NCBI RefSeq assembly: GCF_001750285.1
Contig: NZ_MAMP01000012.1
Span: 353,751 to 393,750 of the forward strand
Length of the DNA: 40,000 bases
Direction of reading: 5' to 3'
DNA from: Domibacillus iocasae
GTDB lineage: Bacteria; Bacillota; Bacilli; Bacillales; Domibacillaceae
A program made the translations under genes and the position numbers. The notes under the pieces were generated by a model, which searched no databases, was not told the DNA's origin, and worked only from the letters and a program-made list of their open reading frames with translations. Positions 20,337-34,285 of this stretch are shown piece after piece. How positions within the stretch are numbered: position 1 is the stretch's first letter; each line of letters opens with the position of its first letter.

Positions 20337-20379
20337 TTTCTGTATGTATAGTTCCGTTAACACTACTAATATGAAATTC

Positions 20380-21933
20380 CTATTGATCACTTGCGATAAT
20401 TGTTTTGTTTCTTCCTTCTTGTTTTGCCCTGTACAATGCTTGGTCAGTCATATTTAATAACTCTTCAAAATGAATTGTCATCGTTGACGTGTTTCCAATT
20501 CCAATTGAGAGGGTAACCGGCTTACCTGTAGGACTATTCGTTGTTTCCAATGATTTTCGAATTTTTTCCGCTACCATTTGGGCAGTTTCCAAGCCCGTGT
20601 CAGGAAGAATAATCAAAAATTCTTCGCCGCCTATACGGAAACACAAATCAATCTCTCTGGTTTCTGTCTTAACCATGTCGGCAACATATTTTAGTACTTC
20701 ATCTCCTAGTATGTGTCCGTATTGATCATTTATTTTCTTAAAATGGTCAATATCAAATAAAATGATTGAGTAGATATCTAAATCTTTAATAGTCTTTTCT
20801 AAGTAACGACGATTAAAATAACCTGTTAATGGATCAATATTTGATTCATTCTCAGCATAGTTGGCTCTTTTCTCATAAAAATCAAAAGCTATTAATACAG
20901 CCCGCTTTAATTCCTTTAATTCAAAATACCAATCAGGGATATGCGGTTTAGTTATCACCTTATTTTCTGTAATTTGTTGTGCGTAAGCGGCTAAGTCTCT
21001 TATAGGCTTCACAAATTTGCGTAATAAGATATAAGTTATTATATATACCAGCGTAATAAATGGAAGAGTACTTACACTTACTTGTTTTGTCAATTCAATA
21101 GTTGGTTTCAATACAGCTTCTTTAGGTGTTTGAGATACGATTCCCCAGTGACCTACTGATGAGTTGGAAGAGGCATAGCCTGCTAACATTGTTATTCCTT
21201 TTGAATTAACAATCTCTTGACTTCCATCCTTCCCCTGTAAAACTTTTTTAATAACCTCATTATCTTTTACGTTCTCTCTAATTCTACTAGAATCGGGATG
21301 ATAAATAAGATTTCCTTTAGAGTCAACTACATATACATATGAACCGCTTTCATGCTGTGGATGTTCGCCAAGTATATTGGAAAGACTGTTATTCTCGTCT
21401 AAATTGATTGATCCTCCAAGAAATCCTGTATAATTACCATTGGCATCATAAACCGGAAAAGAAATGAGCATTATGAGATGACCATTAAGGCCCACATAAG
21501 GTTCAGATATTAAAGGCACTTTTTTTCTTAACGCTTCCCTTGCGCCAATTGTATTCGTCTTTCGCCCCTTCAAATCCGTATGCGGTGCTGCTGAAACAAC
21601 CTGGCCTGTTTTATCTACAAACCAAGTTGCGTTAAAAAAAGAAGTGGCTGCTAACATGGTATTTAATTTATGTTGTATAGTTTCAGGATCTTTCGTTAAG
21701 AATTCATCTTCTTGTGATTCTATACGGAGATTTTTTACCATGTCTTTAAAAAGGGAATCCGTTGTATCAGCGAGCTTTTGAGCATAAAATTGATTATCTA
21801 CTAAATAGTTGTTCTCCAGGTTACTTTTACTTACTAAAATACTAGAAGCCGAACTCCCAATGAAAGTGCCTAAAACTGCAAAAGTCAACAACGTTAATGA
21901 CAGAATATTTATGTTAAGTTTAATAGATTTCAT
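20380..21933 (-). CDS. Membrane-bound sensor diguanylate cyclase (TM - double-Cache-like ectodomain - TM - GGDEF)
   Basis: 517 aa. An N-terminal TM (LSLTLLTFAVLGTFIG) is followed by about 250 aa with a Cache-like pattern, then a second TM (LPFITLVYIITYILL). The C-terminus reads DPLTGYFNRRYL...FDIDHFKKINDQYGH..GDEVLK...REIDLCFRIGGEEFLIIL...ALYRAKQEGRN. The GGEEF A-site is intact and RxxD lies 5 aa upstream. The gene is AT-rich. Confidence 0.85.
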   Translation of the reverse strand: MKSIKLNINILSLTLLTFAVLGTFIGSSASSILVSKSNLENNYLVDNQFYAQKLADTTDSLFKDMVKNLRIESQEDEFLTKDPETIQHKLNTMLAATSFFNATWFVDKTGQVVSAAPHTDLKGRKTNTIGAREALRKKVPLISEPYVGLNGHLIMLISFPVYDANGNYTGFLGGSINLDENNSLSNILGEHPQHESGSYVYVVDSKGNLIYHPDSSRIRENVKDNEVIKKVLQGKDGSQEIVNSKGITMLAGYASSNSSVGHWGIVSQTPKEAVLKPTIELTKQVSVSTLPFITLVYIITYILLRKFVKPIRDLAAYAQQITENKVITKPHIPDWYFELKELKRAVLIAFDFYEKRANYAENESNIDPLTGYFNRRYLEKTIKDLDIYSIILFDIDHFKKINDQYGHILGDEVLKYVADMVKTETREIDLCFRIGGEEFLIILPDTGLETAQMVAEKIRKSLETTNSPTGKPVTLSIGIGNTSTMTIHFEELLNMTDQALYRAKQEGRNKTIIASDQ

Positions 21934-21942
21934 AATAAACTT

Positions 21943-21972
21943 AGTATATATAATTAAATTGTTTCACTGCAA
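21943..21972 (-). promoter_or_regulatory. Candidate promoter of the cyclase gene, implying a near-leaderless mRNA
   Basis: On the minus strand: TTGCAG (21972-21967), 18 nt, TATACT (21948-21943). Only 9 nt separate the -10 from the ATG, and no Shine-Dalgarno is visible. Confidence 0.3.
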
Positions 21973-22018
21973 TTGCATTTTGGTTTTATCAGGTACTTTT
22001 TTCTTTCTAAACTTTAAT

Positions 22019-22924
22019 TTATTTTAATTTTTCCAGTACCTTCTTCCTTAGCTCCTCTTTCTCTTCCTTGCTCAGCCCCATGATGTCTTTATTCACCACA
22101 GGCGAAAGCACACAATGGCAATTTACCCGCTCGCCTGCAGGTAAAGAAGTGTCACGGGGATGATCGGCTGCATGGCCGTTCACATCAAATGTTTCATCAA
22201 CGGCAACTTCTTCACCGTCCAGATCCACATGCGCTTCACGTGGATTATTTTTCTTGCTGCCTGAATGCCGCCAACGCTTCTTTTCGACTGCTGGGCTTTG
22301 CCGGTATGATTCCGCCTGCGCAACAGAAGAGGCAGTCAGTATTTCGGTAATAGCGGTTGTACGTGCTCGCTTTCGGTCAAACTGCGGCAGATCCTTTATA
22401 GCCAGCTCGGCGTCCTGGATGGAGCCGCCTTCTTTAATGACCTTTTTTAATTCTCTCTCCAATGCATCATGAGAGTTGAGCTTCATCAGCTTGCCTAAAT
22501 CAGCAGACCATTCTTCAATCCAGGTAACGGATCGGTTAGACAGGACTTCAAAAGGTACATCCTTATCAATAGAATCCATTAGTTCAGCGGCTAGTCCTGC
22601 CACTGTCAGTTGCAGAAACGATGATGTTTCCTCTTGCATCTCTTCCGCAAATTCATCCGCAGCAAAAAGGTTGCTGGTGATGTAAATAAGGAGCGCTTCG
22701 AGTGTAATATCCTTGCTGACGAATGATTTTACGCCATCAACAAAATGCTTCCGCTGTTTGCGCAGAAGCTTGGCCACTTTCTTTTCATAATCTTCAACAA
22801 AGCCTGGTATCTGATCCAATCCAGGGAAATCCGGTACTAGATCCGTCAGCTTTTCCTCGTCTTCTTCATCCACTTTGGCAATATAGTCATTCAAGCTTTT
22901 TAAAAGCTTTTCTGCCTTGCTCAT
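22019..22924 (-). CDS. Minor head morphogenesis protein (SPP1 gp7 / Mu F family)
   Basis: The C-terminal sequence RWRHSGSKKNNPREAHVDLDGEEV...PGERVNCHCVLSP is the Phage_Mu_F signature. The gene follows the portal gene. Confidence 0.85.
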   Translation of the reverse strand: MSKAEKLLKSLNDYIAKVDEEDEEKLTDLVPDFPGLDQIPGFVEDYEKKVAKLLRKQRKHFVDGVKSFVSKDITLEALLIYITSNLFAADEFAEEMQEETSSFLQLTVAGLAAELMDSIDKDVPFEVLSNRSVTWIEEWSADLGKLMKLNSHDALERELKKVIKEGGSIQDAELAIKDLPQFDRKRARTTAITEILTASSVAQAESYRQSPAVEKKRWRHSGSKKNNPREAHVDLDGEEVAVDETFDVNGHAADHPRDTSLPAGERVNCHCVLSPVVNKDIMGLSKEEKEELRKKVLEKLK

Positions 22925-24459: not shown

Positions 24460-24462
24460 GAG

Positions 24463-25791
24463 TTACCTCCTCTCTCTAGTCGGTCTTTTTCGATTCGGCC
24501 GTTCCCTTTGTCTTTTCTCTTTCAAGTCCGCCACTTCGTAATTGTCCAGGCCATACCAGATAGCCGATAACGTATGCGGATCAATCTTGAATTCATCCTC
24601 AATGATGTTTCCATTCTTATCAACTGCATACGTTAAATCCTTCAATTCATAAATAGTATTGGTGCATTGACTAGAACAAATGATTTTTCTAAACCGCTTC
24701 ACCTTTTTCGTATATTGAAGCCGGGAGCCTTTATACTTCTTTGCGCCCATCATGTTGAAACCCAGCTGCCTAAAATATTTGATCGTTTTCGGTTCGGCGC
24801 TATCCGCTTTAATCAACTCTTTCGATTCAGCAAATTCCTTTATCGCCTCAGCTGTTTGATCATCGGTCATTCCATTCTTATAAAATTCCCAATAGATGTA
24901 GAGAATCTTCTTTTCATGATCGACAGCTAGTCGAAGCAAAGCATTGTAAGAATTGACGAAACCGAAATCCATGCCAGCCCTCATAAGCGGCTTATTTATG
25001 TTCTCGATCGCAGCCATCACTTCTTCATGCGGCTTTATCGCGAATTGCAGCAGCACCTTCACGCCGTTCACACCAAATTGACCTTTCCTGGCAATGCGGT
25101 AAAGGTCTGGATCATATTCTTTCAGTTCATCCAATTGAGCGATATAACTTTCTGGCAAGAATAAATTGTCTTCAGCTGTTGAGTGGTGGTAGTACGTATC
25201 ATTTGTGACTAATGTTCTCTTTTCGTATAATTCAGCATCGTCCAGTATGAGACGCTTATTCATATCATCACGAAAAAAATGTTTAAAGGACCAGTTATCT
25301 TCCCCAACCGGGTTAGTGGAAAGAATCATGTGCAGCTTCAAAGTTGGATGCCTGAGCCGGCCAAGTAATTCTTTAAACCCTGCATACTTTACTTCTGAAC
25401 ACTCTTCAATCCAAACAATAGAGATATTGTTAATCGATTTTAATTTTGCAGGCCGGTCCATACCTTTAAAGATGATCTTGCTTCCATTAGGAAAGCGGAT
25501 CTGCATAGGTGAAGTCATGCATTTAACATGATCATCAAGCCCTAAGTCAATCACCAGCTCCTCCAGCAAAGAAAAGGTGGAATCGCGGTGTGTATCGTAT
25601 ACTTCACGTACAACGAGAGCGGTACGCTTTTCTTCCAACATCTTTAAAATAATTTTTAAAGCTACGTGATAGCTCTTACTGCTGCCATATCCGCCGACAA
25701 GAAACTGAAATTTCGTTGACCACTCGAATAGGAAATCTTCAAAATGAGGATTAACTTCTTTTTCAACCATTTCAATCGCTAATTCACTCAT
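24463..25791 (-). CDS. terL: Terminase large subunit (PBSX XtmB / Terminase_3 type)
   Basis: 442 aa. Walker A-like VGGYGSSKS, and WIEECSEV as the Walker B/coupling motif. A nuclease-domain C-terminus is present. Confidence 0.9.
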
Positions 25792-26684: not shown

Positions 26685-26720
26685 GTCACATCACCACCAC
26701 CTCCGTGATTGTTTTTGAGC

Positions 26721-26749
26721 AAAGAAAAAAGCACCTCATAATTTGAGGT
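26721..26749 (-). terminator. Intrinsic terminator between a small cargo ORF and terS
   Basis: On the minus strand: ACCTCA-AATTA-TGAGGT followed by GCTTTTTTCTTTGC. Confidence 0.55.
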
Positions 26750-26767
26750 ACTCATTACCAAGTTTCT

Positions 26768-26974
26768 TTACCAAGGGGATCTATTGCTTATTTTAGCGGG
26801 TTTTGTAAAATGAATTGATGTAACATTCCCCATGTTCACCGCCTGATGGTCTTCGCTGGTATACCATTCTGAAGTAGTTAGCATTTTCAGAATCTCTCCC
26901 TCGTTTTCACCTTCAATTTCAAGCCTTTTATAATTTTCTTTATCAAACGTAAAAAGCACACTGTATTTAGCCAT
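26768..26974 (-). CDS. Hypothetical small protein (68 aa)
   Basis: ATG 26974 is preceded by AAAGGAGGTGGGGG. The longer track version (to 27139, TTG start) has no RBS. Confidence 0.5.
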   Translation of the reverse strand: MAKYSVLFTFDKENYKRLEIEGENEGEILKMLTTSEWYTSEDHQAVNMGNVTSIHFTKPAKISNRSPW

Positions 26975-27074
26975 TCCCCCACCTCCTTTTGCCTTACATT
27001 TCGACAAAAGGAGATAATTTCCTGCGTTCATCATATTCGTTTTAGTGATATGATTACCCAGGCGAGGTGACAAA

Positions 27075-27245
27075 ATGGAAACTGAACAGAAAATTGATTT
27101 AAATGTGACATACAACATTTTAGAATACCCGGACATCAAAAGCGGCCGTTGCGATAATTGCGATAACGCTCAATTTAAGAGCTCGATTAAAAATGCTATT
27201 TTTTTACGCGAGTGCCGTAAGTGTGGAATGAAGAAAATAATTTAA
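27075..27245 (+). CDS. Small zinc-ribbon protein (56 aa, CxxC...CxxC)
   Basis: METEQKIDLNVTYNILEYPDIKSGRCDNCDNAQFKSSIKNAIFLRECRKCGMKKII. A GAGGTG RBS is present, and a terminator follows directly. The ORF is below the track cutoff. Confidence 0.5.
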   Translation: METEQKIDLNVTYNILEYPDIKSGRCDNCDNAQFKSSIKNAIFLRECRKCGMKKII

Positions 27246-27275
27246 CCCCGCCAACTGGCAGGGGTTTTGTTTTTT
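27246..27275 (+). terminator. Intrinsic terminator
   Basis: CCCCGCC-AACT-GGCAGGGG followed by TTTTGTTTTTT. Confidence 0.6.
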
Positions 27276-27309
27276 AGCAAAGAAAAAAGCATCACAACGG
27301 GTGCCTTGC

Positions 27310-27468
27310 TTACAATTTCTTTTTCAAATCATCCACTGTCTTTTCCAGTCTATCTTTCGTATCTTTCCTGTTTTGATTATCGGCTAATTGATCAACTTTA
27401 GCATTTAACTTTTTTAGCTCTTCAAGAATTTCTCTTAGAACAGGACCATTCATTTCGGATATACCCAT
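27310..27468 (-). CDS. Small coiled-coil protein (52 aa)
   Basis: MGISEMNGPVLREILEELKKLNAKVDQLADNQNRKDTKDRLEKTVDDLKKKL. A GGGGGTGG RBS lies 5 nt upstream. The ORF is below the track cutoff. Confidence 0.45.
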   Translation of the reverse strand: MGISEMNGPVLREILEELKKLNAKVDQLADNQNRKDTKDRLEKTVDDLKKKL

Positions 27469-27550
27469 ATTTCCACCCCCTTTTTCCTAACATTTCTACA
27501 TTCATAGAGGAAAAACCTCTTTAATTAGCGAATATTGTAAGAAAAGGGGG

Positions 27551-27925
27551 GTGAAAATTTTGGAAGAAACAACTTTTTATAATAACCGAGGCAAACCCGT
27601 CGCTTATACTCAAGATGAAACTTATATTTATCTGTTCTCTGGAAAACCAGTTGGATATTTTGATCAGGATTCCATCTTTTCTTTTTCAGGCAAACATCTT
27701 GGTCGTTATAATAATGGTTGGGTTAGAGATAATAGTGGAAAATGTGTGTTTTTTACCGTTAATGCATCTGGCTCAGGTCCTGCTAAACCCGCTAAATCAG
27801 CCAAACCGGCAAAAGGCGCTAAATCAGCTAAGCCTGCTAAAGGAGCTAAGCAAGCACGCCCTGCAAGACCAGCTAATAGTCTGAGCTGGTCTAGTTTATC
27901 TTTCGAATGGTTCTTCAATCAGTAA
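27551..27925 (+). CDS. 4-fold beta-flower-like protein with an Ala/Lys/Pro-repeat C-terminal tail
   Basis: There are four internal repeats of (S/R)GK(P/H/C)(V/L)(A/G/F)(Y/R/F): RGKPVAY, SGKPVGY, SGKHLGR, SGKCVFF. These are followed by PAKPAKSAKPAKGAKSAKPAKGAKQARPARPA (DNA 27778-27872). The start is uncertain: GTG 27551, or TTG 27560, which has better RBS spacing. Confidence 0.55.
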   Translation: MKILEETTFYNNRGKPVAYTQDETYIYLFSGKPVGYFDQDSIFSFSGKHLGRYNNGWVRDNSGKCVFFTVNASGSGPAKPAKSAKPAKGAKSAKPAKGAKQARPARPANSLSWSSLSFEWFFNQ

Positions 27926-27926
27926 A

Positions 27927-27961
27927 TAAAAAGCACTACCTTAAAGAGGTAGTGCTTTTTT
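27927..27961. terminator. Bidirectional terminator shared by convergent genes
   Basis: A perfect 11-bp stem AAGCACTACCT/AGGTAGTGCTT is flanked by an A-run and a T-run. Confidence 0.8.
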
Positions 27962-28026
27962 AATGCTATTGATTTGTCTTTCTCATATATACGTCATCTG
28001 TACGACAAAAAATTCTTATTATTGTT

Positions 28027-28491
28027 TTAAGCATACAAGTCAATAATATGTTCTTTATATTCAGCCTTTGGTAAAGTACCGTCCTTCTTGAATTCAAATT
28101 CTAACTTTATCACTATTTCTTCGCCAGTTTTTTCCCGTAATTTATTTAACAGTTCTATGTGTGAGTCTAAATTTTGCTTAAATCTTCTAATTGAATTCCA
28201 AATAATCCGTAATGCTACACGCCTGTTTGAATTAATCTCTTTTTTTAATTTCTCTTTTTGGTTTTTTGAAATTTTAGCACCACGATTAATGCTATGAATG
28301 TATTCGGATCTATGTTTGATTATTTCGCTGTAAGCATGGATTGGAAAAACAATTTGTAAAATCACTACATTTAATAAGCGTCTAAAAAGAAACTTGGTTT
28401 TGGAGTAATAAAAAATCCTTAATAAAAGACCCAGAAAAATGGAGATAGTAAACGCAACGAATAGAATTTTAAAATCATGATTAGTTAGCAT
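28027..28491 (-). CDS. Membrane-anchored protein of unknown function (1-2 N-terminal TM, charged coiled C-terminal part)
   Basis: 154 aa, very AT-rich, no family recognised. It is the second gene of a two-gene unit. Confidence 0.6.
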   Translation of the reverse strand: MLTNHDFKILFVAFTISIFLGLLLRIFYYSKTKFLFRRLLNVVILQIVFPIHAYSEIIKHRSEYIHSINRGAKISKNQKEKLKKEINSNRRVALRIIWNSIRRFKQNLDSHIELLNKLREKTGEEIVIKLEFEFKKDGTLPKAEYKEHIIDLYA

Positions 28492-28510
28492 TTAGTTCAC
28501 CCTTTCTTTT

Positions 28511-28969
28511 TTAAGCAGTCTTTTCCTTGGATTCGCTCCAAATTTTAGGGGCACTTCTTACTCCGTAATTAAATATTTCTATACCTAATAGTACAATTAT
28601 AGCCACAAAACTATAAAACACATAATTTTTCGCACTAAAAGGTTCAATCATACTTGTTAAAAAGTTATTTGTATTTCCGGATAACATGTATCCATCTTTT
28701 CCGTTTTCAAGTATTAGAAAGTTAAAAAAGCCTGCAGCATCTACACAAGCAAATAGCACAGATAAAACAATACCCATGCATCCGATTATTCTTTCCAACC
28801 CTAGATTATAATATGCTACATTTGAATAATCAATGATGAGCATAAGAAAAAAGACTAGCCTTGAAGCAAAAAATATTTTTGTTTCAAGTTCTGTACTAGG
28901 CTGAAAATTAATCAAAAAAAGGTTTGCGCCAATTAGTACGGCTCTGAAAAGAGTAAGGAAAAATTTCAT
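28511..28969 (-). CDS. Polytopic membrane protein of unknown function (about 4-5 TM)
   Basis: 152 aa with a GGTGGA RBS, very AT-rich. It is the first gene of a two-gene unit. Confidence 0.6.
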   Translation of the reverse strand: MKFFLTLFRAVLIGANLFLINFQPSTELETKIFFASRLVFFLMLIIDYSNVAYYNLGLERIIGCMGIVLSVLFACVDAAGFFNFLILENGKDGYMLSGNTNNFLTSMIEPFSAKNYVFYSFVAIIVLLGIEIFNYGVRSAPKIWSESKEKTA

Positions 28970-29009
28970 TTTTTATCCACCTATTGGAAATCTTATACTT
29001 CATCATACA

Positions 29010-29039
29010 ATAATACCTAATTTGACCTATAGTTGTAAA
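29010..29039 (-). promoter_or_regulatory. Candidate sigmaA-type promoter of the two-gene membrane unit
   Basis: On the minus strand: TTTACA (29039-29034), 18 nt, TATTAT (29015-29010), about 40 nt upstream of ATG 28969. Confidence 0.4.
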
Positions 29040-29075
29040 TACCCTTTTTTAAATCCGTACAAACGAAATGTTTTT

Positions 29076-29570
29076 TTATGAAACTAAAAAAAGGCTGCCG
29101 TTTTTTCTAACTTCAATTTTCTGCTCTGCTCGTTCTAAGTACGTCTGGACAGATGACTTAGTAAGCCCTAATAATTCTGCCGTATACTCGAATGTGATTC
29201 CTTCCGCTTTAATCAATGTAAATACATCTTTTTCCCTCGTTGTTAAATCCCCAAGCACATCATCCAGCAACCATTTCTCATCAGCTGTCAGCTTTCTTTC
29301 TTCGCTGGCCACAATTCGATTCGGAACAACAGCTTCAATCAGTTTCGGATCCAACGTATAAGCCCCTGTCCGATCAGCCCCGCGTCTTGCATCCGGATTC
29401 CGGCCGGACACCATCCACTGAATAGCAAATTCCACTTCGCTGATCATGCTGTTAATGAGCGTCTTATCCTGGAGGTCCTGTTCCAACAATTCCGGTTTGG
29501 CTTCGATGGCTGCCTTCACTTCCTTCAGCGCTCGTAATGATTGTTTGTATTCGTAAATGAGTGTCCGCAT
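29076..29570 (-). CDS. Sigma-70-like late gene activator (Xpf-like)
   Basis: The C-terminal sequence LTTREKDVFTLIKAEGITFEYTAELLGLTKSSVQTYLERAEQKI is a sigma region-4 HTH. Size and position upstream of the packaging genes match PBSX xpf. ATG 29570 is preferred over the track TTG at 29600, which lies in the terminator T-run. Confidence 0.7.
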   Translation of the reverse strand: MRTLIYEYKQSLRALKEVKAAIEAKPELLEQDLQDKTLINSMISEVEFAIQWMVSGRNPDARRGADRTGAYTLDPKLIEAVVPNRIVASEERKLTADEKWLLDDVLGDLTTREKDVFTLIKAEGITFEYTAELLGLTKSSVQTYLERAEQKIEVRKNGSLFLVS

Positions 29571-29596
29571 GTTTATTCCCCATTTCTTTTTATTAA

Positions 29597-29651
29597 GCAA
29601 ATAAAAAAGGACACCAAACAGCGCACGATTTTTCGTGTCTGTTCAGTGTCC
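29597..29651 (-). terminator. Strong intrinsic terminator immediately upstream of the sigma-like gene
   Basis: A 43-nt imperfect hairpin spans 29609-29651 (GGACAC..AACAG..CACG / CGTG..CTGTT..GTGTCC). It is followed on the minus strand by TTTTTTATTT. Confidence 0.7.
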
Positions 29652-29674
29652 TTCAGATGGCTGAGAGAACTATT

Positions 29675-30388
29675 CTATTGTTTCTTTTTGATTAAATGCT
29701 TTCTTTTTATGTCCCCTTTTCCTCCTACTGTAGAATCGAAAAAATATAGGGCGCAATAAATCAAAGCAACTATGGTGGTCAAATAAAAAATAATTATTCT
29801 AAATGTGGAAGAAAAAATTTCATTGTCCTTATCTACTATTACGTCTGCAAGAGCTACTAGCGCGATGAGCGCTAATATTATACAAATATATTCAAAAACT
29901 TCTTTCAATAAAAAAAGTATATTTCCAGGAAGGCTAATCCATCGATTAATTGTTTTTTTCTTTATCCACCAATTCAAATCTTTGGAACTCACCATCAGTT
30001 TTTCCCAATAATGTTTTTCAACTTGTTTTGTCAAATAAAAGAATTCATCTATCAGTTCTTTATTAGAGATACTCCCTTCTCTTATTTTTATGGATAATTC
30101 ATGAAAGTTACTAATCAGTTTATCATCGTACAGTTTGTAAATCTCATCATTATTTGAATAGAATAAAATAAACTTCTTAACCTTTTTAACGTTATACTTA
30201 TTTACATTTGTAATTAGTAACGCTTCTTTATACATCTTTGCAATAAGGCTATCCATACTGTCTTCAACCATTAAAGAAAACTTTTTTCCTCTCTCGCTTA
30301 GTTTTCCTAAAGAAAAAGCCAGCATTGCAGAAATAACGGCCACAATAATAGGTATATATTCTTTAATGTTTATAAAAGCATCTGTCAA
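29675..30388 (-). CDS. Membrane protein of unknown function (N-terminal TM, helical middle, C-terminal TM pair)
   Basis: 237 aa. The TTG start overlaps the upstream stop (TTGA), with GAGGGGG 7 nt upstream. The gene is very AT-rich. Confidence 0.6.
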   Translation of the reverse strand: MTDAFINIKEYIPIIVAVISAMLAFSLGKLSERGKKFSLMVEDSMDSLIAKMYKEALLITNVNKYNVKKVKKFILFYSNNDEIYKLYDDKLISNFHELSIKIREGSISNKELIDEFFYLTKQVEKHYWEKLMVSSKDLNWWIKKKTINRWISLPGNILFLLKEVFEYICIILALIALVALADVIVDKDNEIFSSTFRIIIFYLTTIVALIYCALYFFDSTVGGKGDIKRKHLIKKKQ

Positions 30389-30579
30389 AAATCTTCCCCC
30401 TCTTCCCGTCTCATCCGCTTCACCTTGCCCTGATGCGTGACAATCTTGTATTCCCCATGCGGAGGCAGCTCTCTGATCTTGACCTTCCCGTCACAGACCA
30501 CCAAAACACATGTACTTGGTATTTCCATTATATCCAATTCTAGCTTCATTGTGGATATATCAATCTCGTATTCTCTCAT
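30385..30579 (-). CDS. XtrA/YqaO-like small protein
   Basis: 64 aa. The pattern CVLVVCDGKVKIRELPPHGEYKIVTHQGKVKRMRREEGEDF resembles the XtrA/YqaO family as I recall it. Its position ahead of the sigma-like gene matches PBSX. Confidence 0.5.
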   Translation of the reverse strand: MREYEIDISTMKLELDIMEIPSTCVLVVCDGKVKIRELPPHGEYKIVTHQGKVKRMRREEGEDF

Positions 30580-30633
30580 AGTCGAGGAGCCCCCAGTCTG
30601 TTAAAATAGAATTGCGAGTAATATTGAAACAGG

Positions 30634-30664
30634 CCGGGGACATGTTCTCGGTTTTTTTCTTTTG
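30634..30664 (+). terminator. Orphan plus-strand terminator-like hairpin
   Basis: CCGGGGA-CATG-TTCTCGG (7 bp including 2 G-U pairs), followed by TTTTTTTCTTTT. No plus-strand gene lies upstream of it. Confidence 0.35.
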
Positions 30665-30780
30665 TCACAGAAAATTTACAATTTCAGAAAATAATTACAA
30701 ATTACGAGGTAAAACCCTTAATTTTTACATATTTATGTTTTATACTCTTTTAAAACCCTTTACAGGCTAGGGAGGATCAC

Positions 30781-30948
30781 ATGGAGCAAAGCCAATTAAT
30801 TTCTACTAGTCTAGATTCACAAATTAACGATCTTCGATTTCAGATGATTATTGCTGGGCAGCAACATGGCCTTAGTAGCCCTGAAACCTTACGATACAGC
30901 GAAGAATTGGATAAGCTAATTCTTGAATTTCAACTACAATATAGATAA
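30781..30948 (+). CDS. Spo0E-family aspartyl-phosphate phosphatase-like protein (55 aa)
   Basis: MEQSQLISTSLDSQINDLRFQMIIAGQQHGLSSPETLRYSEELDKLILEFQLQYR fits the Spo0E/YisI/YnzD pattern I..R..M......GL....T...S(Q/E)ELD.LI..(Y/F)Q. A GGGAGGA RBS is present. The gene is on the opposite strand to the phage backbone and is below the track cutoff. Confidence 0.7.
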   Translation: MEQSQLISTSLDSQINDLRFQMIIAGQQHGLSSPETLRYSEELDKLILEFQLQYR

Positions 30949-31060
30949 TTGAAACTTGTGATCAATCTTTCTGGGCTTTTGTGAATAATTTTTTTATCAA
31001 GTGGTACATACTAGTACTGTCAGTTTAAAACCCTACTTCTTCAACTCGACAGCCTTTCTG

Positions 31061-31095
31061 CAGTCAGAGCCCCCGCCTGGCTGTTTTTTGTTTTT
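31061..31095 (+). terminator. Probable terminator of the Spo0E-like gene
   Basis: CAGTCAG-N9-CTGGCTG (one mismatch), followed by TTTTTTGTTTTT. Confidence 0.45.
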
Positions 31096-31220
31096 CAAGA
31101 AGTCCATATTCTTATGTTTTTTTGCTTATTGGTAATAAGTAGTATAGACTTGGTTCATCAAGCTGTAATTACACCCCTGTTGTTGCAGGTTGATCGCTCG
31201 GGAGCATTTGCTTCTGGGTG

Positions 31221-31499
31221 TTAATTGAATCCCCACTGCTTCTTCGCCATTTCCAAGCGTTCCGGCGTTAAATCCTGATACTTCGCTAAAATGTGTTCAT
31301 CACTTAATCCTTTTTCCATAAACCGCATGTATTGTGCTTTACTCAAATTTCCGTTCGAATTAACTGTGCGCTTTGGCCGCTCCTGCTTCTTCATGTTTCG
31401 TAAATAAGCAGGCAATTTTGATTCAAACTTTTCTGCGCAATAGGCTTTTACTTCTTCTGGCGTCCACTGCTGCTCAATTACTGCTCCATGGTATGCCAT
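31221..31499 (-). CDS. Hypothetical phage protein (92 aa)
   Basis: Track ORF. It overlaps the upstream gene by 22 nt. No family recognised. Confidence 0.55.
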   Translation of the reverse strand: MAYHGAVIEQQWTPEEVKAYCAEKFESKLPAYLRNMKKQERPKRTVNSNGNLSKAQYMRFMEKGLSDEHILAKYQDLTPERLEMAKKQWGFN

Positions 31500-31771
31500 T
31501 TTTGTTTTCCTCCCGTCAGTTCTTCAAAACATTCCTTATTCTTCGTAAGAAGCGCCAGATCAATAAGCACTGTTTTGTCCTGATACTCATTAAGCAAATT
31601 ATCTGCTGGTTGCAGACGGTATGATTCAAACAGCGCACGAGTTGGCACCAGCCATTTCAGTTCACCATCTTTGACACTGGCCACTCTCTTTATTTCCACT
31701 TGACCCCCGTAGAGGGTAATTGTTGTGATATAGCCGATTACAATATCATCACCTACTGCGACAGAGCCCAC
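31478..31771 (-). CDS. IDEAL-domain-like protein
   Basis: The C-terminal sequence VLIDLALLTKNKECFEELTG resembles the IDEAL motif. The GTG start lies almost inside GGAAGGAG, so the exact start is uncertain. Confidence 0.5.
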   Translation of the reverse strand: MGSVAVGDDIVIGYITTITLYGGQVEIKRVASVKDGELKWLVPTRALFESYRLQPADNLLNEYQDKTVLIDLALLTKNKECFEELTGGKQKWHTMEQ

Positions 31772-31906
31772 TCTCCTTCCAACATGGCTGCCATCCCTTT
31801 AATTACATTTTTTTTCGTTACATAATCTAACAAAAAATGTTTGTTTTTATTAAAACCGGGTAAAATATCAATTCAAAGATTTCAAAAATAAGGAGGTTTT
31901 CTAAAG

Positions 31907-32077
31907 ATGCTACCAATTGAACTTTTCGGATGGATCATATCATTTCTTTTAATGGTCAGCTTTATTGGTTCATTAGTGTTCGTATCAAGAAAGCCCACAT
32001 TGTTTTCGAAATCGGAATACGATTCACCGCAAAATAATAATCAAAATCCCGAACGAAAAGGTAAACAATTTTATTAA
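31907..32077 (+). CDS. Small single-TM membrane peptide (56 aa)
   Basis: MLPIELFGWIISFLLMVSFIGSLVFVSRKPTLFSKSEYDSPQNNNQNPERKGKQFY. A strong AAGGAGG RBS is present, and a terminator follows immediately. Confidence 0.5.
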   Translation: MLPIELFGWIISFLLMVSFIGSLVFVSRKPTLFSKSEYDSPQNNNQNPERKGKQFY

Positions 32078-32100
32078 AGCGCTTATAGCGCTTTTATTTC
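32077..32100 (+). terminator. Intrinsic terminator
   Basis: AAGCGCT-TAT-AGCGCTT followed by TTTATTT. Confidence 0.6.
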
Positions 32101-32156
32101 GTCTTCATATTCCATTATTAAGCTAAAGAATACTTACATCTAGGAGTGACATCACA

Positions 32157-32399
32157 ATGGATTTTGACACCATCAAAGACAAACTTGAAGCTCTTTGTTG
32201 CTACAATAATATTCGTATTACCTATTCATTCGATAAGGACAAACACCCTTATTTAAAGGCACAATGCAAAAATGGTACAGAAACAATACAGGTAAGGATT
32301 CTCTCCAATAATGAATTAATCGAATTTGATTCAATTGAAAAAGCAGCTTCTGCCATAGAAATGCTACTTCAGACTGAACCTCTTGAAGACATCTCCTAA
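32157..32399 (+). CDS. Hypothetical protein, paralog A of a two-member small-protein family
   Basis: 80 aa. It shares M.F..IK..LE......I.Y.F....HP......KN....IQ.........E........AAS.I..L with the ORF at 32859-33077. Confidence 0.6.
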   Translation: MDFDTIKDKLEALCCYNNIRITYSFDKDKHPYLKAQCKNGTETIQVRILSNNELIEFDSIEKAASAIEMLLQTEPLEDIS

Positions 32400-32422
32400 A
32401 ATGACACAGCACCAGATTTATT

Positions 32423-32451
32423 CAGCCAAGTACCAATTGCTTGGCTGTTTT
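32423..32451 (+). terminator. Hairpin/terminator after paralog A
   Basis: CAGCCAAG-N9-CTTGGCTG followed by TTTT. Confidence 0.45.
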
Positions 32452-32494
32452 CCACCGAAAACACAACTTCTTTTATCCTTCAGGCTCACCCCTT

Positions 32495-32716
32495 TTAAAA
32501 TGGTTTCATTTGTTCAAAAAACGCTGGTTCTTCTTGCTTATCAAAAATGTCCTCTTCAATGACTTGATCTGATACGGTTTCTATATTTTCGATTTTGGTC
32601 TCCAGCTCTATTAAGTCGAAATGTTCAAACCAGTGAACCGGATAACAGGCAAGCACCCTTTTTAAATCGTCTGTTTCGTAAACATCAACGAGCAGTTCAT
32701 ACCCATATTCCAGCAT
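32495..32716 (-). CDS. Highly acidic small protein (73 aa)
   Basis: MLEYGYELLVDVYETDDLKRVLACYPVHWFEHFDLIELETKIENIETVSDQVIEEDIFDKQEEPAFFEQMKPF. ATG 32716 lies 7 nt after AAAGGAGTG. The longer track start lacks an RBS. Confidence 0.55.
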   Translation of the reverse strand: MLEYGYELLVDVYETDDLKRVLACYPVHWFEHFDLIELETKIENIETVSDQVIEEDIFDKQEEPAFFEQMKPF

Positions 32717-32858
32717 CTCAAGCACTCCTTTATGACGTGATATGGACGTACTGTTTAGCAGTCTCATGATTGTGGTACATTTACTACTAAATACATTCAT
32801 TGGATTTCTTTCGACTTTTTTTAGTCCCTTTCCTCTGGTGAGAAAGGAGGAAAATGAA

Positions 32859-33077
32859 ATGTCCTTTGAGAGTATAAAGATGTTGTTAGAGTTTATGCAG
32901 CATCATAGGAGTACTGAAATCATTTATACTTTCAAAAATAACAACCATCCTGTAGCTATAGTTAGTTTGAAAAACATTGGTATAATACAAATTATATTTT
33001 CTCAACTGCCACATGAAATCAGCTACTACCATGATGCAGATGAAGCTGCATCTGTTATCGACAAACTAATAAATTAA
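32859..33077 (+). CDS. Hypothetical protein, paralog B (72 aa)
   Basis: ATG 32859 follows AAAGGAGGAAAATGAA. The track start at 32742 would add a hydrophobic, RBS-less extension overlapping the convergent gene. Confidence 0.6.
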   Translation: MSFESIKMLLEFMQHHRSTEIIYTFKNNNHPVAIVSLKNIGIIQIIFSQLPHEISYYHDADEAASVIDKLIN

Positions 33078-33091
33078 AAGTTTTTTATACT

Positions 33092-33122
33092 AACTCCTTT
33101 GAAATTTCAGAGGAGTTTTTTA
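33092..33122 (+). terminator. Intrinsic terminator after paralog B
   Basis: AACTCCTTTGA-AATT-TCAGAGGAGTT followed by TTTTT. Confidence 0.65.
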
Positions 33123-33148
33123 ATTGCACAGTTTCGGTCATCTGCTGC

Positions 33149-33283
33149 TCAATTCTCACATTCCAATTCTTCATAGAAATAAGTGGATTTTTTGTTATCT
33201 ACAGCATCTCTTAAATCATAATCAGCGTAATAAAATCCCATAGGTTCTTTGCACTTGGCACATGGAAAAGTCAATATTGGCAA
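33149..33283 (-). CDS. Possible small CxxC protein (44 aa), speculative
   Basis: A TTG start follows GAGGAAAGAAT. The protein reads (M)PILTFPCAKCKEPMGFYYADYDLRDAVDNKKSTYFYEELECEN. There is no other support. Confidence 0.2.
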   Translation of the reverse strand: MPILTFPCAKCKEPMGFYYADYDLRDAVDNKKSTYFYEELECEN

Positions 33284-33377
33284 ATTCTTTCCTCGTTCAC
33301 AATTTCGTTCTAATGTTGAGTATTAATTTTTTTTATTGTGGTAAAATTATTTAGAAACGGTTAGGAGGCAGTTCTAT

Positions 33378-34217
33378 TTGAGTGTATATTTAAACGATCA
33401 GTATGTTGTTGACATCTCGAACAAAATATTGAGTCTGCGGGACCAGTTGATTAAGGAAAAAGCTAATCTGGACAGCAATCAAGTCCATGCAAACATTGAA
33501 AAGCATTTAAAAAGCTGGCGTAAAAATCTTGTTGAAATTTACGCTTATTCTATTTCAAGAGATATGGACGCCACATTCAGTATTTTGAGGGAATGGGGAG
33601 ACGAAGCTGTCGATACTCTGGTGAATCTGAATCTGCCCCTGGATATTGCGCTTGATGAAGTGCGGGATTATCGGAACCTAATCGGTCTTATCATTAAAGA
33701 TGAAGCCATTAAATACGATTTATCCTTTGATCAATTTTATGAGATCCTTTCACGGTTTGGTGCCGTGGTGGACCGGGCTGTTCACTGGCTTAGCATGTCT
33801 TATACAAGAAAATTCCTTACCCGTATCAATGCTGCAGAAGCAGTCGCTCTGGAATTATCAATACCTGTCATTAAAGTAGCTGAGACTGTCGGCGTTCTTC
33901 CTTTAATAGGAGACATTGACACGAAAAGAGCACAGGAACTAATGGATAAAGCCATGGCAAAAAGCAGTGAATTGTCTTTAGAATATATCGTTATAGACTT
34001 ATCAGGCGTTCCCATCATCGATACCATGGTAGCAGATCGAATATTCAAAGTTATAAACGGTCTTTCTCTTTTAGGGATTAAAGCATTACTGACAGGGATC
34101 AGACCCGAGATTGCCCAAACCATGATTAACTTAGGCGTCAATGTCAACACTTCAGATATCCCCGTCTATTCCTCTCTGCAAAAAGCTTTGAAAAGTTTAC
34201 GAGTGGAGAGCCTTTGA
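33378..34217 (+). CDS. RsbR-family stressosome sensor paralog (N-terminal helical sensor domain plus C-terminal STAS domain)
   Basis: 279 aa with a TTG start 9 nt after TAGGAGG. The C-terminal half ELSIPVIKVAETVGVLPLIGDIDTKRAQELMDKAM...YIVIDLSGVPIIDTMVADRIFKVINGLSLLGIKALLTGIRPEIAQTMINLGV closely follows the RsbRA-RD STAS consensus. This includes both Thr positions (DTKRA, IDTMVA) that I recall as RsbT phosphorylation sites. Confidence 0.8.
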   Translation: MSVYLNDQYVVDISNKILSLRDQLIKEKANLDSNQVHANIEKHLKSWRKNLVEIYAYSISRDMDATFSILREWGDEAVDTLVNLNLPLDIALDEVRDYRNLIGLIIKDEAIKYDLSFDQFYEILSRFGAVVDRAVHWLSMSYTRKFLTRINAAEAVALELSIPVIKVAETVGVLPLIGDIDTKRAQELMDKAMAKSSELSLEYIVIDLSGVPIIDTMVADRIFKVINGLSLLGIKALLTGIRPEIAQTMINLGVNVNTSDIPVYSSLQKALKSLRVESL

Positions 34218-34245
34218 TTTTCTGAATCAAAAGGTAATTTACAAG

Positions 34246-34285
34246 CACGAGTGAAGAGTTGTCTTTCACTCGTGTTTTTGCTTTT
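34246..34285 (+). terminator. Strong intrinsic terminator after the RsbR-like gene
   Basis: CACGAGTGAA..TTCACTCGTG stem (10+ bp), followed by TTTTTGCTTTT. Confidence 0.75.

What the first reader, a model, noticed from the sequence alone, without database searches (positions are those of the whole stretch)
20380..34217. One prophage carrying modulators of three separate host decision circuits (c-di-GMP, SigB stressosome, Spo0A phosphorelay)
The three cargo genes are the Cache-GGDEF cyclase (20380-21933), the Spo0E-like phosphatase (30781-30948) and the RsbR-like STAS sensor (33378-34217). They sit at three different insertion points, and each has its own expression signals. Each lacks the partner proteins of its pathway, so each can only act through host machinery. 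Taken together this looks like a prophage-borne 'host signalling hijack' set rather than random morons. This combined interpretation is inference and is the most novel hypothesis I can offer for this window.
Basis: inference. Interest (0 to 1): 0.75.

Follow-up and report, generated by a model that had tools for sequence, protein, structure and literature searches.

The report
Prophage carrying three separately acquired host-signalling genes
A PBSX-like prophage of Domibacillus iocasae really does carry an intact c-di-GMP cyclase, a Spo0E-type sporulation brake and an RsbR-type stress-sensor gene, but they arrived separately rather than as a set; the new point is that related prophages have repeatedly picked up RsbR-type sensors and small sporulation inhibitors.

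Summary
At the stated coordinates there are three intact genes: a dCache-GGDEF cyclase, a Spo0E-family protein and a full-length RsbR paralog. All three lie inside a PBSX/skin-type myovirus prophage whose proteins match Domibacillus iocasae exactly. Each sits in a different cargo slot and has at least part of its own expression signals.

The "co-selected hijack set" reading is not supported. None of about 50 related prophage loci carries the triad.
- The GGDEF gene is unique to this prophage. Its nearest relative (82% aa) sits in a non-prophage island of D. indicus.
- The Spo0E-like gene is a lineage-typical neighbour of xtrA, and phage spo0E is already published.
- The RsbR gene is shared with only a few Domibacillus prophages.

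What does emerge is recurrence by function. A D. tundrae relative carries a different RsbR paralog in the very slot that holds GGDEF here. A Domibacillus sp. relative has Sda directly upstream of the same RsbR gene. Two others carry two or three Spo0E copies. An unrelated prophage carries a third RsbR lineage. I found no RsbR gene in credible deposited phage records and no paper describing one.

Best reading: independent, selectively maintained morons. Moderately interesting, mainly for the stressosome cargo.

The parts
20380..21933 (-). Two-TM dCache_1-GGDEF diguanylate cyclase gene (517 aa). Carries GGEEF, an RxxD I-site (REID, 5 residues upstream of GGEEF) and a DIDHFK metal-binding motif.
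   Evidence: Pfam GGDEF 7e-38 and dCache_1 3e-17. NCBIfam TIGR00254 1e-41. Motifs read from the translation. 100% identical to D. iocasae OES45818.
20404..21981 (-). Extent of the GGDEF cassette: 84% nt identity to the D. indicus chromosomal-island copy. It covers the CDS plus 48 bp upstream.
   Evidence: blastn of the window against L050. Alignment of the upstream regions.
21943..21972 (-). Candidate native promoter TTGCAG-18 nt-TATACT. It ends 9 nt before the ATG and there is no Shine-Dalgarno sequence, so the mRNA may be leaderless. Inference only.
   Evidence: Sequence. Both hexamers and the ATG are conserved in D. indicus, and homology stops just upstream. The element falls below the consensus-scan threshold.
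20319..20335 (-). Terminator hairpin after the GGDEF stop codon: GCCGG-A7-CCGGC followed by T7 on the - strand.
   Evidence: Terminator scan lists the hairpin on the + strand. The - strand sequence was read directly.
22019..22924 (-). Head-morphogenesis (Mu F / SPP1 gp7-like) gene: upstream border of the late cargo slot.
   Evidence: phrog_2468 1e-96.
19023..20216 (-). XkdF-type prohead protease/scaffold gene: downstream border of the late cargo slot.
   Evidence: Pfam Peptidase_S78_2 1.5e-48. The junction varies from 17 to 2289 bp in 24 relatives.
30781..30948 (+). Spo0E-family gene (55 aa) with signature SEELD. It is divergent from xtrA. Ribosome-binding site GGGAGGA at 30770-30776.
   Evidence: Pfam SpoOE-like 1e-12. 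Sequence. Alignment with prophage homologs.
30659..30967 (+). Spo0E cassette, defined as an indel: the flanking sequences abut in the related prophages L048 and L059.
   Evidence: blastn of the window against L048 and L059.
30385..30579 (-). xtrA (PBSX XtrA/YqaO family), the conserved neighbour of the Spo0E gene.
   Evidence: Pfam PBSX_XtrA 8e-17. Divergent Spo0E-XtrA pairs in L001, L052 and L054, with Spo0E-like and XtrA-like hits also in L014.
33378..34217 (+). Full-length RsbR paralog (279 aa): helical N-terminal sensor, long linker helix, STAS domain. Both phospho-acceptor Thr residues are conserved (T182, T216).
   Evidence: Pfam STAS. YtvA_fam C-terminal match 1e-22. phmmer against PDB RsbR, ~1e-25. 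AF2 model plus Foldseek hit to 7b0u. Conservation in 54 homologs.
33299..34303 (+). RsbR cassette: 94% nt identical to prophage L048 of Domibacillus sp. A3M-37. Includes an extended -10-like TGgTAAAAT (33339-33347) and the AGGAGG ribosome-binding site (33363-33368).
   Evidence: blastn. Sequence.
34243..34277 (+). Intrinsic terminator after the RsbR gene (14-bp stem followed by a T run).
   Evidence: Terminator scan.
13246..13839 (-). Fourth, non-signalling moron: a dienelactone hydrolase gene inserted between the tube and XkdN genes (GC 0.32).
   Evidence: Pfam DLH 4e-23. Absent in L059, where the tube and XkdN genes abut. Belongs to a 90% cluster with Cytobacillus and Peribacillus proteins.
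29076..29600 (-). Xpf-like late sigma factor gene: a backbone marker.
   Evidence: phrog_1190 9e-39. NCBIfam PRK06930 133.9 bits.
24463..25791 (-). PBSX-family large terminase gene, used as the anchor for finding relatives.
   Evidence: phrog_2. Identical to D. iocasae OES45882.

Best explanation
The window is a mosaic PBSX/skin-type temperate myovirus prophage of Domibacillus iocasae with several permissive cargo slots. Three slots hold intact, host-type signalling genes that were acquired independently and at different times.

(1) Spo0E-like gene. This is an older, lineage-typical cargo, always divergent from xtrA. It most likely dephosphorylates Spo0A~P and so delays or lowers commitment to sporulation.

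(2) RsbR paralog. It travels as a promoter-to-terminator cassette among Domibacillus prophages. It most likely co-assembles with host RsbS and RsbR proteins, is phosphorylated by RsbT, and so changes what the stressosome senses or its SigB activation threshold.

(3) Cache-GGDEF cyclase. It has been seen in no other prophage and was captured together with its native promoter from a Domibacillus genomic island. It most likely adds a ligand-gated source of c-di-GMP, with motility-down and matrix-up effects.

Shown: the gene identities, intact motifs, cassette borders, distributions and purifying selection. Inferred: expression in the lysogen, the biochemical activities, and any benefit to phage or host. 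The three genes act through host pathways one by one. They are not a co-inherited module. The lineage as a whole does show repeated capture of sporulation inhibitors and stressosome sensors.
For: Identity and integrity.

Prophage backbone.

Independent histories:
- GGDEF is absent from all 49 TerL-anchored relatives. The nearest copy (82% aa, 84% nt) sits in D. indicus between metabolic operons, beside IS605 TnpB and small phage-like IDEAL genes.
- The RsbR cassette is 94% identical in prophage L048. The 65-69% homologs are single chromosomal genes with conserved synteny in Mesobacillus.
- The Spo0E cassette is an indel relative to L048 and L059. Spo0E-like genes are present in L001, L014, L052 (2 copies) and L054 (3 copies), next to xtrA where the gene map was read (L001, L052, L054).

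Selection: dN/dS is 0.155 for GGDEF and 0.36 for RsbR.

Cargo-slot nature: the head-morphogenesis/XkdF gap is 17-2289 bp in 24 relatives, with low GC and diverse contents.

Functional-class recurrence:
- D. tundrae prophage L059/L061 carries a different RsbR paralog (35% identical, both Thr residues kept) in the same late slot.
- L048 has Sda directly upstream of RsbR.
- L060, an unrelated HK97-type prophage, has a third RsbR lineage.
Against: - No expression or activity data exist.
- I could not read the D. iocasae genome, so the host partners (RsbS/T/U, SigB, Spo0A phosphorelay, c-di-GMP receptors) were not verified.
- The Spo0E promoter is not identified, and the GGDEF promoter is weak by consensus.
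- The same slots in relatives mostly hold non-signalling or defence cargo: ADP-ribosyltransferase, RosmerTA-like RmrA, SH3_3, TM proteins of unknown function. Signalling genes are therefore a minority of the cargo.
- No statistical baseline for enrichment was computed.
- Only a handful of Domibacillus prophages could be examined, and two further D. iocasae RsbR copies have unknown context.
Confidence: 0.6

Rival explanations
1. One reading: the three genes are a co-selected 'host signalling hijack' set that works as a unit to steer motility/biofilm, stress response and sporulation for the prophage's benefit.
For: All three are intact, lie in one prophage, and have some expression signals of their own. 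Relatives also carry sporulation and stress modulators.
Against: No relative carries the triad, and the distributions are discordant. GGDEF is in none of 49 TerL-anchored loci, RsbR is in a few Domibacillus prophages, and Spo0E is in a different subset. Divergence from the nearest copy also differs: dS is 0.63 for GGDEF against the D. indicus island copy and 0.10 for RsbR against the L048 prophage copy. The three lie 9-13 kb apart with no shared regulation evident.
Confidence: 0.08
2. Neutral hitch-hikers: host genes picked up by illegitimate recombination at permissive junctions, with no function for phage or lysogen. Signalling genes appear simply because Bacillaceae genomes hold many of them.
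For: The slots accept almost anything. GGDEF was seen only once. A non-signalling dienelactone hydrolase moron sits in the same prophage. Cache-GGDEF and RsbR families are abundant in Bacillaceae chromosomes.
Against: There is purifying selection since divergence (dN/dS 0.155 and 0.36). Catalytic and phospho-acceptor motifs are intact. RsbR was captured three times independently, Spo0E is multiplied, and Sda is present in related prophages. The RsbR cassette is maintained at 92-96% identity in at least three Domibacillus species.
Confidence: 0.2
3. Defence or superinfection-exclusion cargo. The genes protect the lysogen against other phages, for example through c-di-GMP-mediated loss of motility or a surface change that blocks flagellotropic or receptor-dependent phages, or through altered stress or sporulation state acting as a refuge.
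For: The same slots in relatives hold defence-type genes: a RosmerTA-like RmrA in L048 with PADLOC E=3e-160, and many membrane proteins of unknown function. Hot spots in temperate phages are known homes of defence genes (established knowledge).
Against: PADLOC gives no defence-family hit for the three genes apart from generic palm-domain similarity of GGDEF to Cas10. All three belong to ordinary housekeeping signalling families with chromosomal orthologs.
Confidence: 0.1

Closest known systems
Phage- and prophage-encoded spo0E, rap and abrB ('sporulation hijacking'; Bernard et al., bioRxiv 10.1101/2021.07.15.452460; MBE 2023, PMC10075063). Also the 'aspartyl-phosphate phosphatase' of Geobacillus phage vB_GthS_PK2.1 (OP341625).
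   Same: A small Spo0E-family gene carried by a temperate phage of a spore-former, predicted to lower Spo0A~P.
   Different: There is no adjacent RRNPP receptor/propeptide pair here. The gene instead forms a conserved divergent pair with xtrA in PBSX-type prophages.
Stand-alone RsbR paralogs of the Bacillus and Listeria stressosome (RsbRA-RD, YtvA; PDB 7b0u, 6qcm, 2mwg).
   Same: Same length and architecture, a STAS domain with both RsbT phospho-acceptor threonines, and unlinked to rsbS/rsbT as the chromosomal paralogs are.
   Different: It is encoded in a prophage as a mobile promoter-to-terminator cassette. I found no RsbR gene in credible records among 50,697 phage records. Only two RsbR-bearing contigs turned up in IMG/VR pattern scans. 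No paper in the library describes one. The nearest hint is a STAS-fold prediction in Stenotrophomonas phage DLP4 (PMC6469090).
Diguanylate cyclases carried by mobile elements. Examples: genes annotated as diguanylate cyclase in Bacillus phage SP-15 (KT624200) and Escherichia phage vB_EcoS-683R6 (ON470595). From my own knowledge: DgcK/DgcL of SXT/R391 ICEs.
   Same: A GGDEF enzyme carried as accessory cargo of a mobile element, acting on the host c-di-GMP network.
   Different: Only the GGDEF domain is similar (37-44% identity over about 30% of the protein). This one has a periplasmic dCache sensor and is an ortholog of a Domibacillus genomic-island gene.
Phage-encoded sporulation sigma factors and B. 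anthracis lysogeny effects (Schwartz et al., PMC9429907; Schuch & Fischetti, PMC2716549).
   Same: The concept that phages of spore-formers carry homologs of host developmental regulators.
   Different: The molecular targets differ: stressosome, Spo0A~P and c-di-GMP rather than sigma factors. This prophage's own sigma is the Xpf-type late activator.
PBSX and skin elements of Bacillus subtilis.
   Same: The backbone: XtrA, Xpf-like sigma, PBSX-family terminase, XkdF, XkdN, YqaI, YqbF-type genes.
   Different: This element keeps a replication/recombination module (DnaD/DnaC, RecT/RecE) and carries several morons.

Membership tests
GGDEF diguanylate cyclases | GGDEF domain scoring above the Pfam gathering threshold | tested here: met
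   130.3 bits against a cut-off of 23.8. TIGR00254 142 bits against 37.4.
GGDEF diguanylate cyclases | Intact GG(D/E)EF active site, metal-binding Asp motif, and RxxD inhibitory site | tested here: met
   GGEEF, FDIDHFKKINDQYGH, and REID 5 residues before GGEEF, all read from the translation.
GGDEF diguanylate cyclases | c-di-GMP synthesis activity | not testable with these tools
   Needs an enzyme assay or in vivo c-di-GMP measurement.
dCache_1 extracytoplasmic sensors | dCache_1 domain above threshold, flanked by two TM helices | tested here: met
   63.3 bits against a cut-off of 45. Hydrophobic segments at about residues 8-34 and 297-314, judged by eye.
Spo0E family of aspartyl-phosphate phosphatases | PF09388 match above threshold in a small (about 55-85 aa) protein | tested here: met
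   48.2 bits against a cut-off of 23; 55 aa.
Spo0E family of aspartyl-phosphate phosphatases | Signature SQELD motif with the catalytic Asp (established knowledge of Spo0E/YisI/YnzD) | tested here: met
   SEELD: Q is replaced by E and the Asp is kept. Homologs carry SQELD or SEQLD. One paralog class in L052 and L054 has SEELN.
Spo0E family of aspartyl-phosphate phosphatases | Dephosphorylates Spo0A~P | not testable with these tools
   Biochemical assay or sporulation-timing assay needed.
RsbR stressosome sensor paralogs | C-terminal STAS domain of RsbR/YtvA type | tested here: met
   Pfam STAS 57 bits. YtvA_fam C-terminal match 1e-22. STAS part of the model has TM 0.9 to RsbS 6jhk.
RsbR stressosome sensor paralogs | N-terminal helical sensor domain plus long linker helix; total length about 270-280 aa | tested here: met
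   phmmer aligns residues 67-257 to Listeria RsbR 60-250. The AF2 model has five N-terminal helices plus helix 117-159, and its best PDB hit is full-length 7b0u over 280 columns. Overall TM is only 0.41.
RsbR stressosome sensor paralogs | Both RsbT phospho-acceptor threonines (B. subtilis T171/T205; Listeria T175/T209) | tested here: met
   IDT(182)KRA and IIDT(216)MVA. T216 is invariant and T182 at least 90% conserved in 54 homologs.
RsbR stressosome sensor paralogs | Assembly with RsbS/RsbT in the host; host possesses rsbS-rsbT-rsbU-sigB | not testable with these tools
   D. iocasae proteins were not on record in the contig look-up. No partner is encoded in the window.
Phage morons (lysogenic-conversion cargo) | An insertion between backbone genes that is absent from close relatives | tested here: met
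   GGDEF: the junction is 17 bp in L007, L024 and L033. Spo0E: the flanks abut in L048 and L059. RsbR: a discrete 1-kb cassette.
Phage morons (lysogenic-conversion cargo) | Own promoter and terminator, and deviant base composition | tested here: inconclusive
   Terminators were found for GGDEF and RsbR. Promoter-like elements were read by eye only and are weak for Spo0E. GC is 0.35-0.40 against 0.43-0.46 in the backbone.
RRNPP quorum-sensing-linked viral spo0E (Bernard et al.) | An adjacent 250-460 aa TPR/HTH receptor plus a 15-65 aa propeptide | tested here: not met
   The neighbours are XtrA, a 237-aa TM protein, orf92 and orf97. None is receptor-like.
PBSX/skin-type prophages | XtrA, Xpf-type sigma, PBSX-family terminase, XkdF, XkdN | tested here: met
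   PF17356 8e-17. PRK06930 133.9 bits, just under its 136 cut-off, plus phrog_1190. 'PBSX family' TerL. Peptidase_S78_2 and the XkdN phrog.

The most novel reading that the evidence does not exclude
Domibacillus prophages form a lineage in which stressosome sensor subunits (RsbR paralogs) are recurrent, selectively maintained phage cargo. They were captured at least three times independently: the window/L048 cassette, the D. tundrae late-slot paralog, and L060. They are combined with small sporulation inhibitors (Spo0E, Sda). On this reading the prophage inserts its own sensor into the host stressosome and sets the SigB-versus-sporulation decision of the lysogen. The cyclase in this window would add a third lever. 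It would be the first described phage-encoded stressosome component.
Probability: 0.3. Interest if true: 0.65.

Novelty: new variant of a known kind. Interest (0 to 1): 0.45.

Why it matters
Prophage morons that retune host behaviour are well known, and phage spo0E has been described. A prophage-borne RsbR paralog has not, as far as the phage records and the paper library I searched show. If such a subunit really joins the host stressosome, a virus could change what a cell perceives as stress. In spore-formers that bears on whether the cell sporulates, which traps or shelters the phage, or keeps growing. The head-morphogenesis/XkdF junction also turns out to be a well-defined, highly variable cargo slot in PBSX-type prophages. 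That makes it a practical place to mine for new accessory and defence genes.

Tried and rejected
- Megablast of 24.5 kb of the window against 50,697 phage records found nothing.
- Exact-protein look-ups of the window's GGDEF and RsbR, and of the D. iocasae proteins P0001, P0004 and P0007, were not on record. The contexts of the two extra D. iocasae RsbR copies therefore stay unknown.
- I considered that a second, inverted prophage lies next to this one, because TerL (OES45882) and RsbR copy P0007 (OES45866) have out-of-order accessions. I rejected this: portal is OES45820 and TerS is OES45821, so TerL is simply numbered outside the main block.
- RsbR and GGDEF hits in 'Listeria phage LM 4-11-1/4-14-1' records were discounted. 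These are unannotated records that look like host contigs.
- The paper PMC4543499 was retrieved for 'RsbR', but its text says nothing relevant.
- PADLOC gave no defence assignment for any window cargo.
- Spo0A boxes (TGTCGAA) are not enriched in the window: 4 found against 4.9 expected.
- My first dN/dS run for GGDEF was out of register and was redone on a codon alignment.
- Pattern-based IMG/VR scans for the GGDEF and for the head-morphogenesis protein returned only distant relatives or already known loci. The single-protein RsbR scan returned nothing, and the two alignment-based RsbR scans found only the L060 and D. tundrae contigs. These scans have limited sensitivity, so absences are weak evidence.

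Full report
**Observation**

The window is almost entirely one prophage, read on the minus strand. The map is: holin (366-917), baseplate and tail genes, tape measure (8657-12442), XkdN, tail tube, sheath, major capsid, XkdF-type protease (19023-20216), head-morphogenesis protein (22019-22924), portal, PBSX-family large and small terminase, an Xpf-like sigma factor (29076-29600), XtrA (30385-30579), DnaC- and DnaD-like loaders, RecT, a RecE-like exonuclease, and a YqaI-family protein.

The three claimed genes are real and intact.
- ORF 20380-21933(-) is a 517-aa protein with dCache_1 (E=3e-17) and GGDEF (E=7e-38) domains. By direct reading it has a GGEEF active site, a DIDHFK metal-binding motif, and an RxxD I-site five residues upstream.
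- ORF 30781-30948(+) is a 55-aa Spo0E-family protein (E=1e-12) with the signature SEELD.
- ORF 33378-34217(+) is a 279-aa protein with a C-terminal STAS domain.

The STAS protein is a full-length RsbR paralog, on four lines of evidence.
- It aligns with the 278-aa Listeria RsbR over residues 67-257 (E about 1e-25).
- It keeps both RsbT phospho-acceptor threonines. T216 is invariant and T182 at least 90% conserved in 54 homologs.
- Its C-terminus matches the YtvA-family model.
- Its AlphaFold model (pLDDT 81.6) has full-length stressosome RsbR 7b0u as best PDB match, and the STAS part superposes on RsbS at TM 0.9.

Exact protein matches identify the source as Domibacillus iocasae, on a 402,511-bp contig.

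**Insertion points and expression signals**

GGDEF lies between the head-morphogenesis and XkdF genes. In 24 related prophages this junction ranges from 17 bp to 2289 bp. Whenever it is expanded it is low in GC (0.28-0.37 against 0.37-0.46 in the flanks) and holds unrelated ORFs. One of these is an ADP-ribosyltransferase. It is therefore a genuine variable cargo slot.

The GGDEF cassette is defined by 84% nucleotide identity to D. indicus over window 20404-21981. This covers the CDS plus 48 bp upstream. Those 48 bp contain a conserved TTGCAG-18-TATACT element that ends 9 nt before a conserved ATG. There is no Shine-Dalgarno sequence, so the mRNA may be leaderless; that is inference. A GCCGG-A7-CCGGC-T7 terminator follows the stop codon.

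The Spo0E gene is on the opposite strand, divergent from xtrA, with a GGGAGGA ribosome-binding site. Comparison with L048 and L059, where the flanks abut, defines a 309-bp cassette at 30659-30967. I could not identify its promoter with confidence.

The RsbR gene is also on the opposite strand. It sits within a 1-kb cassette (33299-34303) that is 94% identical to one in prophage L048. The cassette carries a TGgTAAAAT extended -10-like element and an AGGAGG site. A 14-bp-stem terminator follows the gene.

GC content of the three genes is 0.35, 0.36 and 0.40, against 0.43-0.46 in the backbone modules.

**The co-occurrence test**

I anchored on TerL and gathered 9 loci from species-representative genomes, 36 from IMG/VR, and 4 by exact look-up of the closest TerL homologs. 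Nearly all have up to 10 kb on each side, enough to cover all three sites in the full-length loci.

- tblastn with every window protein, and HMMs that I built from the homolog sets, find no other GGDEF and no other STAS gene in any of these loci.
- Spo0E-like genes occur in a subset: L001 (Heyndrickxia), L014, L052 (two copies) and L054 (three copies). In L001, L052 and L054, where I read the gene map, they are divergent from xtrA. They also occur on the contig of L013.
- About ten other loci with an XtrA homolog lack Spo0E.

No relative has the triad.

**Separate histories**

GGDEF. The nearest homolog (82% aa) is in D. indicus, in a roughly 9-kb island between metabolic and germination genes. 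It is flanked by small IDEAL-domain genes that resemble the window's early-region ORFs, and it lies next to an IS605 TnpB. Homologs at about 60% identity form a widespread chromosomal Cache-GGDEF family in Bacillaceae. Between the two copies dN/dS is 0.155 with dS 0.63. The gene is under purifying selection, and the two copies are well diverged.

RsbR. Copies at 92-96% identity exist in D. iocasae (two more, context unknown), Domibacillus sp. A3M-37 and D. tundrae. The A3M-37 copy sits in a related prophage, L048 (sigma 91%, XtrA 75%), and has an Sda gene directly upstream. The next tier, at 65-69% identity, consists of single chromosomal genes; in Mesobacillus they show conserved synteny downstream of a PAS histidine kinase. 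Between the window and L048 copies dN/dS is 0.36.

**An unexpected result**

The closest structural relative I found is the D. tundrae prophage L059 (capsid 96%, head-morphogenesis protein 92%). IMG/VR independently calls the same region viral, as L061. In the same head-morphogenesis/XkdF slot it carries a different RsbR paralog of 280 aa. That protein is only 35% identical to the window's RsbR, matches Listeria RsbR at E=4e-30, and keeps both threonines.

An unrelated HK97-type prophage, L060, carries a third RsbR lineage (51% identical). It sits on the opposite strand between a late activator and a DnaB/DnaD/RecT module.

A rough neighbour-joining tree places the Domibacillus prophage copies with the Rossellomorea and Mesobacillus chromosomal genes, not with the D. 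robiginosus homolog. L060 and the L059 protein fall on separate branches. RsbR-type genes therefore entered prophages at least three times. I treat the tree as indicative only.

Other relatives carry a RelA_SpoT-domain gene after xtrA (L054), a glutathione peroxidase beside two Spo0E genes (L052), and a GGDEF-EAL gene near the end of L048. I could not establish whether that last gene lies inside the prophage.

The same slots also hold plainly non-signalling or defence cargo:
- a RosmerTA-like RmrA in L048 (PADLOC E=3e-160);
- SH3_3 proteins and membrane proteins of unknown function in relatives;
- in this window, a dienelactone hydrolase between the tube and XkdN genes.

**Mechanism (inferred from family knowledge, not shown here)**

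- The Spo0E-like protein should dephosphorylate Spo0A~P and so delay sporulation.
- The RsbR paralog should co-assemble with host RsbS and RsbR proteins and be phosphorylated by RsbT. That would change the sensing repertoire or threshold for SigB activation. Chromosomal RsbR paralogs are likewise unlinked to rsbS/rsbT, so 'lacking partners' is normal rather than diagnostic.
- The cyclase should add a ligand-gated c-di-GMP source.

The opposite-strand placement of Spo0E and RsbR, each with its own signals, fits expression in the lysogen. Whether D. iocasae has the required host partners could not be checked, because its proteins were not on record in the contig look-up.

**Comparison with what is known**

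- Phage and prophage spo0E has been described, together with rap and abrB, as 'sporulation hijacking'. One deposited Geobacillus phage has a homolog annotated as an aspartyl-phosphate phosphatase. The RRNPP quorum-sensing partner that defines those published cases is absent here.
- GGDEF genes are annotated in some phages, for example SP-15, but they share only the catalytic domain with this one.
- For RsbR I found no credible phage record. The only hits among 50,697 records are unannotated 'Listeria phage LM' records that look like host contigs.
- Only two IMG/VR contigs carry an RsbR gene by two pattern scans.
- No paper in the library describes a phage RsbR. The nearest is a STAS-fold prediction for a Stenotrophomonas phage protein.

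**Verdict**

The 'co-selected set' interpretation fails its own test. The three genes are best explained as independently acquired, selectively maintained morons. The Spo0E gene is an already known kind of cargo, the cyclase is a one-off capture, and the RsbR paralog is the new element.

The recurrence of RsbR-type and sporulation-inhibitor cargo in Domibacillus prophages is suggestive of selection. It rests on a handful of loci and has no statistical baseline, so I score the finding as moderately interesting.

Noticed in passing
window 13246-13839 (-): A dienelactone-hydrolase moron (GC 0.32) is inserted between the tail tube and XkdN genes. It belongs to a 90%-identity cluster with proteins of Cytobacillus purgationiresistens and Peribacillus saganii, which suggests recent transfer between genera. 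It is absent in D. tundrae prophage L059, where the tube and XkdN genes abut.
   Followed up: partly
window 20217-22018; same junction in L001, L006-L045, L052, L054, L059: The junction between the head-morphogenesis and XkdF protease genes is a hypervariable cargo slot in PBSX-type prophages (17-2289 bp). It is low in GC and its contents are mostly ORFs of unknown function, many with an N-terminal TM helix. One is an ADP-ribosyltransferase (L001) and one an RsbR paralog (L059).
   Followed up: yes
window 26700-29000: The interval between the sigma factor and TerS genes (GC 0.34) looks like another cargo region. It holds two predicted membrane proteins of unknown function (orf154, orf152) and small ORFs. 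Relatives hold quite different genes there (DUF5677, DUF3908, SLH/Big_14, SH3_3, PIN_8).
   Followed up: partly
window 29675-30388 (-); L028 13784-14641: The 237-aa membrane protein between xtrA and the sigma gene has a 31% relative in the late cargo slot of L028. Proteins that look alike by eye (N-terminal TM helix, similar length) occupy the slot in L016, L017 and L030; this was not tested. It would be a family that moves between slots. Function unknown, with no PADLOC or Pfam hit.
   Followed up: no
window 1155-2039 (-): A 294-aa ORF with the lowest GC in the window (0.30) lies between the holin and tail-fibre genes. It has no hit in Pfam, PHROGs, NCBIfam or PADLOC and no homolog in any related locus.
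   Followed up: no
L048 9730-9873 (+): In the related prophage of Domibacillus sp. A3M-37, a 47-aa Sda homolog (a sporulation checkpoint inhibitor of KinA in B. subtilis) sits directly upstream of the RsbR cassette. It lies in a roughly 600-bp insertion that the window lacks.
   Followed up: partly
L048 4463-6436 (-): A RosmerTA-like pair sits between xtrA and the sigma gene in L048: RmrA (HTH plus M78 peptidase, PADLOC E=3e-160) followed by a 253-aa partner. This is the position where the window has the 237-aa membrane protein.
   Followed up: no
L054 1791-2846 (+); L052 1349-1900 (-): Other cargo sits next to the xtrA/Spo0E site in close relatives. L054 has a 351-aa RelA_SpoT-domain protein, which could be an alarmone synthetase or a toxSAS. 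L052 has a glutathione peroxidase.
   Followed up: no
L050 9722-9913 and 12354-12479; window 31404-31596: In D. indicus the GGDEF ortholog is bracketed by direct repeats of an IDEAL-domain gene fragment homologous to window orf97, and it lies beside an IS605 TnpB. These repeats could be the recombination substrates for moving the cyclase gene.
   Followed up: no
window 32157-32399 and 32742-33077 (+): Two small plus-strand ORFs upstream of RsbR are paralogs of each other (shared ...IxYxFxxxxHP... and ...EAASxIxxL... motifs). Their function is unknown, and homologs flank the D. indicus GGDEF gene and occur in L054.
   Followed up: no
phage collection records OR846xxx-OR849xxx ('Listeria phage LM 4-11-1 / 4-14-1'): These unannotated records give hits to RsbR, RsbS-like and several GGDEF genes. 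They look like Listeria chromosomal contigs deposited as phage, and they inflate apparent phage occurrences of host genes.
   Followed up: no
D. iocasae proteins P0004/P0361 (contig 190,602) and P0007/P0362 (contig 402,511): The source genome has two further copies of the same RsbR gene (94-96% identical). One is on the same contig as the window. Their genomic context could not be retrieved.
   Followed up: partly
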